This document shows positions 6,944 through 44,742 of a stretch of DNA of 64,000 bases, piece by piece. This stretch comes from Octopus vulgaris (Eukaryota): the NCBI GenBank assembly GCA_951406725.2, contig OX597814.1, positions 178,870,001 through 178,934,000 of the forward strand, in the 5' to 3' direction. Made by a program: the position numbers and the translations under genes. Each line of letters opens with the position of its first letter. Position 1 is the stretch's first letter. The notes beneath the pieces are model-generated. The model made no database searches and was not told the DNA's origin. It was given only the letters and a program-made list of their open reading frames with translations.

Positions 6944-7185
6944 TATATAATATTATTAGAGACAAAACCACTATTTTGCAAAACAAACAAGGAAAGACTT
7001 AATCAATACATAAAATTTTTGACTTTTTATTAAAATTTTATGTATTGATTAAGTCTTTCCTTGTTTGTTTTGCAAAATAGTGGTTTTGTCTCTAATAATA
7101 TTATATAATATTTTACTATAAAATTGGATTTAATCCTAAATCTGATTTTTTCCCTGTAAATTTGGATTTATTCCCTAATATTTAT
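6944..7185 (+). mobile_element. Fold-back element in (TA)n: 76-bp perfect inverted repeat plus a ~75-nt one-sided extension
   Basis: 6944-7019 is the reverse complement of 7032-7107. The right arm continues to ~7185. TA tracts flank both sides. Confidence 0.85.
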
Positions 7186-7546
7186 ATATATATATATATA
7201 TATATATATATATATACACGCATATATTTGTCTTCATAACGACAGATATATCGATTATACATATTCCTTGCTCACTTATAGCTGTGAAAAAATAAACTTT
7301 TAAAAGATATAACTGCTCTCTTCAAAACTTGTTCATTCAATTTGAAAAGTTGCATTATTTATGGATGGCCTAACAAGTATATATATATATATATATATAT
7401 ATATATATATATATATATATATGTGTGTGTGTGTGTGTGTGTGTGTGTGTGTGTGTGTATATATATATATTAGATAAAAAGAGATAACAAGGCCAAGGTA
7501 GTGAGTGGTTCTCAGGATATTTATAAGGCAAGAGATATAGACATAG

Positions 7547-7592
7547 TCTTAGAGCTGTTTCTTGGATATTATGCATATCCCTTCATCAGAAT
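7547..7592 (-). ncRNA. Type I hammerhead ribozyme motif (one stem III substitution)
   Basis: Minus strand: UU CUGAUGA aGGGAUAU gcaua AUAUCCaa GAAA CAGCUC UA AGA. Confidence 0.65.
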
Positions 7593-8722
7593 TGATGTGA
7601 GATGGTTAAATAGGGGTAACTGTTTGAGTTCCAAATAAGGAAGTATTGTGAAAAGGAGGAGATACGGAATATAGAGGGAAATAAGTCGAAATAAAATATA
7701 AAAGATTGTAGTTTCACTTCCATTATTCGAGTATTATGATGAATAGAAGTGGTAAAAAAGTTTCCTGTACATGCTATGTAAGTTCCTACAGTAGTTCATG
7801 TTTTGTCATTTCAAAGTATGGAGACGTGGATTCTGTATTGCTCATGCAAAGGGGTTTTGAGGTGTGAATGAAAATTTGAGAATGTATTGGTAGTATTTGT
7901 GGATAGAGGAGCGAGAGATATGTATGATTAGAACGAGGACATAGGTCAAAATGAAGACAGGCAGAGAAAATGAGAGGAAGAAAGAGGGAAAAAGAAAAAG
8001 GAACAATTAAAATACTAATAAGAAAGTGAAAAGAAAAGAGAGAGAAATAGTGAAAAGAGTGAAAAAAGAAGTGAAGAAAGGGTGAAAGAAATGGGAAAAG
8101 GAGTGTAGTTGGTGGTCAAAATAATGTGAGCAGAAGATGGGAGAGAATTAGGGAAGGGGTGGATAGGAAGAGTTGAGAAGGTAGGGTGTGAATAAGTGTG
8201 AGATATGTGAGGAGGGCTGATATGATAGGGCTATATTAAGAGATGGGTAGAGAGAAGGTAAAGGTGGGGGTGACACGAAAGTGACTAATAATTTTAATAG
8301 CGTAATTTAAAGTTGGAGGAAAGAATAGACAGATGTCTCTTCCTCTCGTTTTCTCATCCTGTCGTCATTTTAACCTATCTATTCCTTCTAATTACATACA
8401 TTTCCCCGCCTCATCTACCCACAAATACTGGCAATACATTCTCAAATTTTCATTCACACCTCAAACCTCCTTCGAACGAGGAACACAGAATCCTCGGCCC
8501 CACACTTTGGAATGACTAAACATGAACTACCATTGGAACTTACCATGTACAGGAAACTTTTTTACCACTTCTATACGCCACATTACTCGAGTAATGGAAT
8601 TGCAACTACAATGTTTTATATTTTTCTACATATTCCCCTCTATAGTTCCTATATCCTCCATTTCCACTATACTTCCTTATTTCGAACTCAAACATTTACC
8701 TCTAGTTAAACATCTCACATCG

Positions 8723-8768
8723 TCTCTGATGAAAGGATATGCATGATATCCCAGGAACAGCTGTAAGG
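8723..8768 (+). ncRNA. Type I hammerhead ribozyme motif (GAAA changed to GGAA)
   Basis: UCU CUGAUGA aaGGAUAU gcaug AUAUCCca GGAA CAGCUG UA AGG, with palindromic stem III CAGCUG. Confidence 0.65.
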
Positions 8769-9769
8769 CTGTATCCATATCTTTTTCCTTATAAATGTCC
8801 TAAGAACTCCTCACAAGCTTGGCTTTGTTATCTCTTTTTTTCATGTAATATATATATATATATATGTGTGTGTGTGGATGGTAATACAAGACCCACATTA
8901 AACTCCTTACTCGTATCACAATTGAAAAAATAGTTTAACTACGGTCTGTCCATAGCACTTACTTAGCGTTACCTGCCACTGTTTGGGTCTTCTATATATT
9001 AATACCTGTTATACATGTGTATGTATATATATATATATATATATATATATATATATATGTGCGTATGTGTATGTGTATAAGATAGGTTAACGTTCTGGAG
9101 TTTAATTGGTAAGAGAATGCCCTTTGTTATTTTTATTCTACATATGTGTGCATGTATATGTTTAAGCAAATGTGAGTAAGTAAATGTGTGCGAGAAATTG
9201 TTGGAGGCCTTCTTAGAGTGACATAAAATAAGAAGATAAAAAAAAGAAACAGGCAGAAAAATTCGTGAAGGCAAAAAGGAAAGCGAAGAGAAACAAAAGA
9301 GAATAAAAACTGAAAGGAGAGAGAAAAAAATGGGCGAAACAAAGAAATTGGCGTTTTTCTGAAATGGTTTGAAGTATTCTACTTTTATGGTCATTTGTCA
9401 TGCTACCCAGCTGTAAAAGAGGATTTTTTTCTTGAATGGTTGATGCTGATGACAATTCAATACGTCAACTTTCCTTTTGTCGTTGTATTCTCGGTTGTCA
9501 TGTTATCCAGCGGTAGAAAATATATTCTAATCAAAATTGCTTTAGAAGATTATTAAATGTGTGTTTGTGTGTTTGTGCGTGTGTGTGTGTACGTATGTTA
9601 CTTGAGAAACATTAATGAGAACATTTTAATAACGATTTCTTGTGTTCATATGTATACATACGAACAGATACAGACAGAGAGAGAGAGAGAGAGAGAGAAA
9701 GAGAGGGAGAGAAAGAGAGAGAGGGGGAGAGAGAGAGAGAGAAAGAGAATACGCTTATTTTAGGTAAGA

Positions 9770-10150
9770 GTTTTTTACATTGCATTCTAATATTTTGTGT
9801 CATACTTCTGACATATGTAGAAGGGAAATATCTTGAAACTGCTGTCTCCACTTATTTCTATATACTTACTCAGCAGACCCTTGCAAAATCATTCTTATCT
9901 GATATGTTGTCTGTGAATTCTTGCACGTTGGCAGAGTAAATTTTGCCTTGACTAATATATTTTATCTTGCAGATGATGTAGTCTATGCAGTATATGAGAT
10001 TATCTAGGTTGCGTTTCATATATGCATTGACTTGGCAGGAGAATACCTTTGTAAGTTTCTATGGGAACCAGTATCCAGTTGTTATTGTTGACGTTGTTGT
10101 AACATTTTCCACATCTGTTATTTCGTTACTCCTTCAACAAGAATTGTGAA
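9770..10150 (-). mobile_element. Decayed Penelope-like GIY-YIG endonuclease fragment
   Basis: Minus strand reads RCGKC, then DNLIYCIDYIICKIKYISQG, then QRARIHRQHI. This matches NLIY..C..C..YIGQ...R...H of the element at 39.5-39.8 kb. Confidence 0.6.
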
Positions 10151-42966: not shown

Positions 42967-43019
42967 CACACACACACATCGTCAATCTGTGTAGCTATCC
43001 ATCCATCTACATATATATA

Positions 43020-43405
43020 AACTTTGGCATCGAGAGTTACACAAATACCAGAACTGGGCGCCACTGCATAGTGCCAAGGACTCCAAATTTGCCATCAAAA
43101 TGTAGGACAAGATACTGTGATAGCCTGGTCTTCCGAGGCCCACAGCTCTTCAATATCCTCCCGAAGAACCTAAGAGACCTGCATGGGGTGGATGCAGATG
43201 TCTTTAAAATGAAACTGGATCTCTTCTTGTCAGGTGTCCCAGATGAACCAACTTCACGGCAGGAGGTGCAGATGAGGGCAGCTGCATCGAACTCTCTCAT
43301 GCACCAGATGGCATTTGCTAAAAAGCACTCGTGAAGTAAAATCATGTAGCAACACCAAATGGCGGTGCCCCAGCATGGCCACAGCTTGTGAGCTGAACTA
43401 ACTAA
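43020..43405 (+). mobile_element. 3' end of a CR1/L2-group LINE
   Basis: Reads RTGRHC...SLVFRGPQLFNILPKNLR...FKMKLDLFLSGVPDEP, then a short 3' UTR ggcggtgccccagcatggcc...ctgaac and an A-rich end. Confidence 0.8.
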
Positions 43406-43554
43406 AAAAAAAAATATATATATATATATAATATGTGTTATATACCTATAAAATATAAATAATTTAAAATGTATGTATATAATTCATATTTACGTACATA
43501 CAGACAAACAATATATATATATATATATATATATTATTTATACATAAAAATAAT

Positions 43555-44255
43555 ATTTTCCGGTACAGAGAACAAGGTGTCATCATACCACTTTTTTCCT
43601 CCTTTGTACGGCCACACCTTGAATACTGCTGCCCACTGTGGTCTCCTCACACAAGACAAAACATCTCCAGAATTGTGTCACCCCAGAGGGCTCTCACTAA
43701 ACAAATTGAAGGCATGGCTGCTCTCGATTATTGGGATCGCCTTAAAGCCTTGAAACTTTACTCCCTCCAGCGTCGCCGTGAGCGGTACATCATTTGTACG
43801 ATGTGGAAAATATACCGCCAACTTTGCCCAAACGACCTAAACATTAGCTTCAAGGTTCATCCAAGACTTGGACCACGGGCTATACGTCCCCTGCCAAATT
43901 CAAGATCACAACATACATGTACACTGCAACATAATTTCTTTTCCTCAACAGGCCCTGCCCTATTTAACATTGTCCCGAGGGAGATCAAAGAGGAAAAGGA
44001 TCCCATCAACTTCAAACAGAGTCTGGATAGATTCCTTCAAAGAATACCAGATAAGCCAGCCATAATTGGATACAACTCACCCAACAAGAAATCACTACTT
44101 GAACAAAACTGGATACAACTCACCCAACAAGAACTCACTACTTGAACAAAACTTGACTTAAACAGGATTCGAATAATCCTATCAGGTGGTGCTATTAAGT
44201 TAGACATGGCCTGGACCAATCTCTGGTCGAAACATCTAAGTTTTATCTAAGTTTA
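43555..44255 (+). mobile_element. 3' end of a second CR1-group LINE, with an internal 43-bp tandem duplication (44067-44152)
   Basis: Reads FVRPHLEYCCPLWSPH, DYWDRLKALKLYSLQRRRERY, GPALFNIVP and FKQSLDRFLQRIPDKP. Confidence 0.85.
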
Positions 44256-44309
44256 TAAATTTATATCTAACATTTTATATATATATATATATATATATAT
44301 ATATATATA

Positions 44310-44742
44310 ACGAAATGTTAGCGTGAAGCGGTGTTTAGACATAAACAAAATTTTGGTTAGTTAATATATGTATGTGACATATTTCAACTGCTAAATTCAC
44401 TTTCAAATGTCAAATTTACTATTGTTACCGAGTAGAAAATATCTCTCTTATGGTCAAATAGTGTGAAAATACCTGGTTTGTTCAGCGTCATCATTTATCA
44501 GGAAGTGCGAATATGTCAACTTTGTTGACATTTTACATTAAGATGTTGCTTTATAAGTTTGTTCAGTGTTGCCACTCTTAGGTACATCCCATTGACAAGA
44601 GTCCAAAACCTCGAAATATCGATGTCTGAAACTCTTGATGGATAGCGACACTGAATAAACCGGCTGTTTTCACACTTTTCTACCATCAGAGACATATTTT
44701 CTCCACGAACATTGCAATGTCACAATTATATTTTTACTATCC
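44310..44742 (+). mobile_element. Diverged fold-back element in (TA)n with a hammerhead
   Basis: ~44432-44489 aligns to the reverse complement of ~44648-44705. A hammerhead motif lies at 44590-44628. Confidence 0.65.
44590..44628 (+). ncRNA. Type I hammerhead motif with U3-A8 variant core
   Basis: CA UUGACAA GAG uccaaaac CUC GAAA UAUCGAUG UC UG. The cleavage triplet is GUC and stem III is near-palindromic. Confidence 0.55.

What the first reader, a model, noticed from the sequence alone, without database searches (positions are those of the whole stretch)
6944..44742. Recurring architecture: unrelated small fold-back elements in (TA)n with one short arm and one tailed arm
Seen: 6944-7185, 18787-19218, 37592-37832 and 44310-44742 share no evident internal similarity. 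All sit between TA tracts and have an inverted repeat. In the first three, one arm stops at the TA tract while the other runs on for ~75-150 nt. The two perfect cases share the arm terminus AATATTATTAG/CTAATAATATT despite different interiors. Inference: one integration mechanism, plausibly PLE GIY-YIG cleavage at (TA)n plus second-strand priming at a defined AT-rich boundary. This would make them a class of palindromic mini-retroelements rather than MITEs.
Basis: partly seen in the sequence, partly recalled or inferred. Interest (0 to 1): 0.75.

Follow-up and report, generated by a model that had tools for sequence, protein, structure and literature searches.

The report
Inverted Penelope retroelement ends in microsatellites
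These four hairpins are real but ordinary: each is a truncated, head-to-head copy of a different common repeat sitting in a TA microsatellite, two being the ends of full-length Penelope-like jumping genes and two being non-coding repeats that likely ride on such elements, and this lopsided layout is already described for the group.

Summary
The four fold-backs exist and are not MITEs. Each belongs to a separate high-copy family (456-1777 first-look candidates). Across copies the two outer ends are fixed, while arm length and the inner junction vary, so the palindrome is made anew at each insertion. E1 (6949-7182) and E2 (18788-19218) match, at 97-100%, the pseudo-LTR and tail of full-length elements with open 851- and 904-residue ORFs. 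These have a telomerase-like reverse transcriptase and the motifs of the Hydra clade of Penelope-like elements (PLEs). E3 and E4 belong to non-coding tandem units (about 460-520 and 335-340 bp) with hammerhead motifs, i.e. retrozyme-like; no coding partner was found. The layout (inverted 5'-truncated copy, one-sided tail, (TA)n target) is published. The shared 11-mer terminus is real but confined to the two related families E1 and E2; four other families lack it. Departures from the literature: tails of 67-150 nt in five of six families (published 30-40), and both ends lie upstream of the start codon. Junction geometry fits priming from both target strands at two fixed RNA sites (inferred). 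The scan reported the same kind of structure before, in this genome and others.

The parts
6949..7019 (-). E1 inverted arm: tail-less copy of the family's pseudo-LTR end, starting at fixed site A
   Evidence: (maps to 0..-71 of the family reference)
7016..7102 (+). E1 direct copy, 5'-truncated downstream of the family's hammerhead motif; 4-nt overlap with the inverted arm
   Evidence: -87..0; 100% identical to the pLTR upstream of the intact ORF in L141
7103..7182 (+). E1 tail, site A to site B, about 80 nt; in full-length copies it ends 62 nt before the start codon
18788..18937 (-). E2 tail, about 150 nt; ends 50 nt before the start codon in L139
18938..19142 (-). E2 direct copy of the pseudo-LTR end (about -204..0)
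   Evidence: 97-99% identical to the 3' ends of ORF-bearing loci L139 and L111
19002..19081 (-). E2 minimal type I hammerhead motif (intact core, long stem II, palindromic stem III); cleavage not tested
   Evidence: only hit in the window; 0-1 hits in each of 10 shuffles
19138..19218 (+). E2 inverted arm, 81 nt, starts at site A; 5-nt overlap with the direct copy
37591..37678 (-). E3 inverted arm of an old non-coding hammerhead-bearing family
37681..37831 (+). E3 direct copy with an internal deletion, plus a tail of about 105 nt
44310..44344 (-). E4 tail, 35 nt
44345..44504 (-). E4 direct copy, diverged
44530..44742 (+). E4 inverted arm, longer than the direct copy; holds a mutated U3-A8 hammerhead motif at 44584-44634
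6855..6948 (.). (TA)n flank of E1; the other flanks are 7183-7216, 18714-18787, 19219-19232, 37580-37594, 37832-37871, 44276-44309, 44743-44930

Best explanation
The four elements are 5'-truncated head-to-head copies from four separate repeat families, two of them the ends of coding Hydra-clade Penelope-like retrotransposons and two non-coding hammerhead-motif repeats, and they were likely made when a Penelope-type enzyme cut a TA microsatellite and started copying the element RNA from both cut strands, one at each of two fixed sites. Shown: family membership, fixed outer ends A and B, variable inner junction, link of E1 and E2 to open RT ORFs. From the literature: PLE protein nicks and extends both strands of AT-rich DNA and starts at two internal RNA sites that bound the tail (PMC11167929, a Poseidon element in vitro). 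Inferred: one target strand primes at B (giving direct copy plus tail), the other at A (giving the inverted tail-less arm); both copies usually stop early and are joined at their inner ends, often through a few complementary bases. Inferred: E3 and E4 RNAs are copied in trans by an autonomous PLE not identified here.
For: E1 pLTR and tail flank open or frameshifted ORFs in L141, L142, L144, L145; E2 in L139. The E1-family model's best structural matches are telomerase RTs (Foldseek E 5e-9, ranks 1-9; VIA Z 16.2, rmsd 8.5, 333 aligned, tied with a DGR RT). Hydra motifs: DKT in both, CxCx5C in E1, CxxC..E..N..CxH. In 29 E2 copies picked by tail alone, 29 are followed by a TA run, 26 have an inverted arm, and 25 of those start within 8 nt of site A (one start lay outside the fetched DNA). 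The inverted arm is longer than the overlapping direct copy in 9 of 26, equal within 5 nt in 3, shorter in 13, complex in 1; in 2 the direct copy is the tail only, and one locus of another sample keeps only part of the tail (L235), the geometry expected from two primings. Of 22 simple junctions, 12 overlap by 1-11 nt, 4 are blunt, 6 have 1-12 extra nt (BLAST ends, approximate). Paired arms share minority variants (E1 9 sites in 29 pairs, E2 24 sites in 25 pairs), so they come from one source lineage. Hammerhead-shaped motifs in all four families. Two further intact Hydra families, H3 and H4, also end at two fixed sites.
Against: No biochemical test. In most copies both arms cover the same RNA stretch, which needs two template copies or re-use of one; not resolved. 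Geometry alone does not exclude fold-back on an antisense RNA. No coding partner for E3 or E4. The endonuclease domain is supported by motifs only: Pfam finds no RT or GIY-YIG in the four ORFs, GIY-YIG in 2 of 21 aligned relatives (best E 0.0033), profile match to a Pfam-positive GIY-YIG fragment was weak (probability 9.7%), and the single-sequence fold failed. E2 lacks the CxCx5C linker. 3 of 29 E2 copies have no inverted arm. Paired arms also differ at 12 (E1) and 34 (E2) sites, mostly private changes. Target-site duplications and empty sites could not be read in (TA)n.
Confidence: 0.85

Rival explanations
1. Same elements, different chemistry: an antisense transcript folds back and primes itself, and the hairpin is then trimmed at A and B and inserted (model of PMC3846280).
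For: Shared variants in both arms and short complementarity at many junctions fit it; the paper's Discussion argues for it from junction palindromes.
Against: In vitro, a sense RNA is enough and both target strands are extended from two sites (PMC11167929). Fold-back of a tail-bearing first cDNA cannot give the 9 of 26 cases with a longer tail-less arm; the antisense version needs two added precise cuts. 10 of 22 junctions show no overlap.
Confidence: 0.1
2. A separate class of intrinsically palindromic mini-retroelements defined by a shared AT-rich terminus.
For: The terminus next to TA is enriched 443 to 10 over the reversed control; E3 and E4 are short non-coding units.
Against: 30 of 30 inspected matches are E1 or E2 family; these two group together in a quick tree (SH-aLRT 93, not starred, composition warning); arms vary from 11 nt to over 1.7 kb; four other families have other termini.
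Confidence: 0.03
3. TA-targeting MITEs or foldback DNA transposons.
For: Inverted repeats between TA runs.
Against: Arms are asymmetric and variable, copies are 5'-truncated, and longer copies lead to RT ORFs or tandem hammerhead units, not to a transposase.
Confidence: 0.02

Closest known systems
Hydra clade of C-terminal EN+ Penelope-like elements, including Hydra-1_Obim and Penelope-13_HM (Craig et al. 2021, PMC8557442; abstract, passages, sections 6, 11, 15, supplement part 2 of 59 and term searches)
   Same: RT then C-terminal endonuclease motifs, DKT, CxCx5C (E1, H3, H4), CxxC and CxH around E and N, hammerhead in the pLTR, (TA)n targets; an inverted 5'-truncated copy is noted for Penelope-13_HM.
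   Different: Different families: the printed N-terminus of Hydra-1_Obim differs, and seven short motifs from E1-E4 were not found in the supplement text, where long sequences are cut. Units are longer (E1 6.8 kb with about 4 kb of 3' non-coding DNA, E2 3.7 kb; published mostly under 3 kb). ORFs carry N- or S/N-rich inserts. RWK reads KWK (E1) and RWL (E2); E2 lacks CxCx5C.
Inverted pLTR plus optional tail of EN+ PLEs (PMC8557442 Fig. 2 legend; Adineta vaga Pen2a, PMC3846280 passages and Discussion)
   Same: Inverted truncated copy at the 5' side, tail at one end only.
   Different: Tail 80, 150, 105, 71 and 67 nt in E1, E2, E3, H3, H4 against 30-40 nt published; E4 (35 nt) fits.
Poseidon_Ac internal initiation (Frangieh et al. 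2024, PMC11167929; parts 1-2 of 4 read)
   Same: Two fixed start sites bounding the tail; AT-rich targets; both strands extended.
   Different: There the sites lie 111-118 nt inside the ORF; here site B lies 50-107 nt upstream of the start codon in four coding families.
Animal non-LTR retrozymes (Cervera and de la Pena 2020, PMC7229834, passages; Li et al. 2026, 10.64898/2026.07.22.740005, parts 1-2 of 5 and passages)
   Same: E3 and E4: non-coding tandem units of a few hundred bases with a type I hammerhead, proposed to be PLE derivatives.
   Different: Here mostly short partial tandems with an inverted arm and a tail; the word 'tail' does not occur in the 2026 preprint and 'inverted' only in a reference title. 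Circular RNA and cleavage not tested.
Minimal PLE hammerheads including the U3-A8 variant (Cervera and De la Pena 2014, PMC4209133; parts 1-2 of 4)
   Same: Palindromic stem III; U3-A8 core in E4; pairs of motifs on opposite strands 100-700 bp apart already noted.
   Different: Stem II region is long in E2 (55 nt) and E3.
L1 twin priming (recalled, no paper read)
   Same: Two primings from opposite target strands give a 5' inversion.
   Different: In L1 the inner site is variable and the two copies do not overlap; here the second site is fixed and the copies usually overlap.

Membership tests
EN+ Penelope-like elements (E1, E2 families) | Single ORF with telomerase-related RT | tested here: met
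   Open 851- and 904-residue ORFs with RT motifs; E1 model matches telomerase RTs best
EN+ Penelope-like elements (E1, E2 families) | GIY-YIG endonuclease | tested here: inconclusive
   Motif pattern matches the published Hydra domain; Pfam and profile support weak, domain fold failed
EN+ Penelope-like elements (E1, E2 families) | Partial tandem pLTRs, inverted 5' copy, one-sided tail, 5' truncation | tested here: met
   L141, L142, L144, L145, L139, L111; 26 of 29 E2 copies inverted
Hydra clade | DKT in place of DKG | tested here: met
   E1 128, E2 122
Hydra clade | RWK near the N-terminus | tested here: inconclusive
   KWK in E1 and RWL in E2 at the aligned column where relatives read RWK
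Hydra clade | CxCx5C linker | tested here: met
   Met in E1 (702), H3, H4; not met in E2, where only the first Cys aligns
Hydra clade | CxxC and CxH flanking conserved E and N | tested here: met
   E1 808 and 837; E2 864, with CPH in most copies and FPH in L139
Hydra clade | Hammerhead motif in the pLTR and (TA)n targets | tested here: met
Hydra clade | Phylogenetic placement with published Hydra sequences | not testable with these tools
   Published sequences could be read but not loaded; the tree holds only unnamed relatives
Non-LTR retrozymes (E3, E4 families) | Non-coding tandem unit with type I hammerhead | tested here: met
   Spacing 335-340 (4 loci; 288 in 1) and 460-523; tail runs into the unit start in 7 E4 and 3 E3 loci; longest Met-started frame 47-96 codons; motif in 28 E4 and 9 E3 places
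Non-LTR retrozymes (E3, E4 families) | Self-cleavage and circular RNA | not testable with these tools
   Only contigs were available
Non-LTR retrozymes (E3, E4 families) | Cognate autonomous PLE | tested here: inconclusive
   No match of E3 or E4 units to 37 H3/H4 loci; none of 25 + 25 family loci ran into an ORF; no genome-wide search possible
MITE / foldback DNA transposon | Fixed symmetric terminal inverted repeats, constant length | tested here: not met
MITE / foldback DNA transposon | Cognate DDE transposase | tested here: not met
   Longer E1 and E2 copies lead to RT ORFs; for E3 and E4 none seen in 50 loci

The most novel reading that the evidence does not exclude
Hydra-clade PLEs make their inversions by programmed twin priming: one protein complex starts reverse transcription from both cut strands of a TA repeat at two family-specific RNA sites in the 5' leader, up to 150 nt apart, so tail length records the spacing of the two sites, and the E1/E2 11-mer is a start-site signal kept between two lineages only 46% identical in RT. 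This genome's many intact ORFs would make it directly testable.
Probability: 0.4. Interest if true: 0.55.

Novelty: new member of a known kind. Interest (0 to 1): 0.28.

Why it matters
As a catalogue item it is modest: new families of a known clade plus two retrozyme-like families, and a caution that such hairpins can be mistaken for MITEs. Its use is mechanistic. How PLEs form inverted ends and tails is stated as open in PMC8557442. Young families with a fixed second start site, long tails and intact ORFs give substrates to test whether both target strands prime on the RNA.

Tried and rejected
Rfam scan of the window: the 150 rows shown of 173 were microRNA or small-RNA models below their thresholds, nearly all on microsatellites or on the E1 hairpin; no hammerhead family among them. 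Search with the E1 tail alone returned nothing, because common words are skipped, so no unbiased E1 sample exists; E1 counts come from palindrome- or pattern-selected loci. Pfam found no RT or GIY-YIG in the four Hydra ORFs; a PDB sequence search with the alignment gave no hit below E 0.64; the endonuclease domain folded alone had pLDDT 35, and no GIY-YIG row appeared in the whole-model searches, which cover residues 12-495. Empty-site test on contigs of 4 runs was inconclusive: contigs break at TA runs, and joints come from other copies; the E2 family is covered in all 4 runs, which carry four organism labels. Four runs guessed to be RNA cover 26, 13, 28 and 8 of 30 bins of the E2 element, without strand or proof of RNA. 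The careful tree did not finish; the quick tree is used. Paper searches: 'Penelope + twin priming + inversion' listed 3 papers, none on PLE mechanism by title and abstract start (not read); the library lacks most subscription papers, so absence is not shown. Supplements of the 2026 preprint are closed and may bear on whether retrozyme inversions were noted.
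Full report
Observation. The window lies in a 2.8-Gb animal genome, G000; an octopod is my inference from homologue names. E1-E4 are the four elements in window order. All lie between TA runs. E1 and E2 have perfect arms of about 70 and 81 nt; E4 has 56 nt at 82%; E3 is weak on its own. Interiors are unrelated. The 11-mer occurs four times, at the arm ends of E1 and E2 only. E4 also has a tail, of 35 nt.

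Families. Each element retrieved a large family: 456, 1777, 1561 and 1188 candidates, 40 scored each. E1 and E2 copies are young (many 95-100%), E3 and E4 old (about 70-90%). In all four, copies end at two fixed places: site A, where the inverted arm starts, and site B, where the tail ends. The inner junction and arm length vary, from 11 nt to 1754 nt. The palindrome is therefore a product of each insertion and not a family trait.

Link to coding elements. Walking upstream from E2 gave an endonuclease-like frame, then a 904-residue ORF followed by the E2 pLTR and tail (L139). For E1, L141 has inverted arm, pLTR, tail and an open 851-residue ORF; L145 and L142 have pLTR and tail on both sides of a broken ORF. 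The window's direct parts are 98-100% (E1) and 97-99% (E2) identical to these ends. The two proteins are 46% identical over the RT. The E1 model (pLDDT 80) matches telomerase RTs best. Motifs fit the Hydra clade as defined in section 11 of PMC8557442, with E2 lacking the CxCx5C linker. The endonuclease rests on motifs; library support is weak.

E3 and E4. Where the tail is not followed by TA or flank, it runs into the start of the same unit (3 E3 and 7 E4 loci), with spacings of 460-523 and mostly 335-340 bp and no long frame. Both carry hammerhead-shaped motifs with 6-bp stem I and palindromic stem III; E4 has the U3-A8 core reported in PMC4209133. They fit non-LTR retrozymes (PMC7229834; 10.64898/2026.07.22.740005). 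No autonomous partner was found.

The shared terminus. TA plus the 11-mer occurs 443 times against 10 for the reversed control. Of 30 loci inspected, one being the window's own, 25 were classed by script (17 E1, 8 E2) and the other 5 were diverged E1 or E2 copies by eye. Two more intact Hydra families, H3 and H4, found with an outside relative as query (63 matches, none with stops), also end at two fixed sites, with unrelated sequences. E1 and E2 group together in a quick tree (SH-aLRT 93). Shared descent is the simplest account; whether the motif is a signal is untested.

Geometry. From 40 scored of 1135 candidates found with the E2 tail alone, 30 loci were fetched and 29 were not the window's. 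All 29 are followed by a TA run, 26 have an inverted arm and 25 start at site A. The tail-less arm is longer than the overlapping direct copy in 9, about equal in 3, shorter in 13, complex in 1. In two the direct copy is only the tail. In H3, 20 of 30 full-length copies end at A, 9 at B and 1 reads through (by eye; one search classed 29 as 19, 9, 1), so either side can carry the tail. Paired arms share minority variants and differ mostly by private changes. Tails measure 80, 150, 105, 35, 71 and 67 nt, and site B is 50-107 nt upstream of the start codon in the four coding families.

Mechanism. A Poseidon protein nicks and extends both strands of AT-rich DNA and starts at two internal sites bounding the tail (PMC11167929). 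Applied here by inference: one strand primes at B, the other at A, both stop early, and the inner ends are joined. This explains the fixed outer ends, the free inner ends and the tail-only cases. The overlap in most copies needs two template copies or re-use of one. Self-priming on antisense RNA (PMC3846280) remains a weaker rival.

Comparison and verdict. The inverted 5' copy, the one-sided tail and (TA)n targeting are stated in PMC8557442, whose supplement lists an octopus Hydra family and a Hydra element with an inverted copy. Earlier notes of this scan describe the same structures. New here are the particular families, the longer tails and the upstream start sites. Verdict: real, largely explained, new members of a known kind; interest 0.28.

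Noticed in passing
window 7470-8850: Fifth (TA)n-flanked fold-back: an 868-bp unit plus a 505-bp inverted arm at 83%, hammerhead-like cores near 7589 (-) and 8726 (+), family of 1373 candidates; both arms end at nearly the same place, so no tail is evident.
   Followed up: partly
L176-L205, L206-L212: Two further Hydra families with many intact ORFs (63 of 63 listed matches without stops); H3 has a bulged hairpin behind each of its two end sites.
   Followed up: partly
L145:1687-8520; L113:4230-8300: The E1-family unit is 6.8 kb with about 4 kb of repetitive non-coding DNA after the ORF; the ORF has a long asparagine-rich insert after the RT, as reported for rotifer Penelopes.
   Followed up: partly
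L114:6545-8780; L112:3800-8440: E1 copies with pLTR, tail, 1.8 kb of non-coding interior and a second pLTR, and one with 1754-bp inverted arms: possible non-autonomous derivative.
   Followed up: no
window 39807-41003 (-) and 782-1474 (+): Fragments of other RT genes, PLE-like by recalled motifs; the first hits Pfam RVT_1 (E 2e-7), the second nothing.
   Followed up: partly
window 60741-62038: Element with symmetric 45-bp terminal inverted repeats and a broken frame, mariner-like by recall; a real TIR element for contrast.
   Followed up: no
window 33509-33597: 89-bp imperfect palindrome not flanked by TA runs.
   Followed up: no
window 18500-18690: Very high-depth repeat left of E2's TA run, with what looks like a damaged hammerhead core on the minus strand.
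   Followed up: no
L145:200-250; L250, L256: Different families stack in the same TA run: an E1 insertion abuts the end of the 7470-type element.
   Followed up: no
window 37872-38307: 61/122-bp tandem satellite right after E3's TA run.
   Followed up: no
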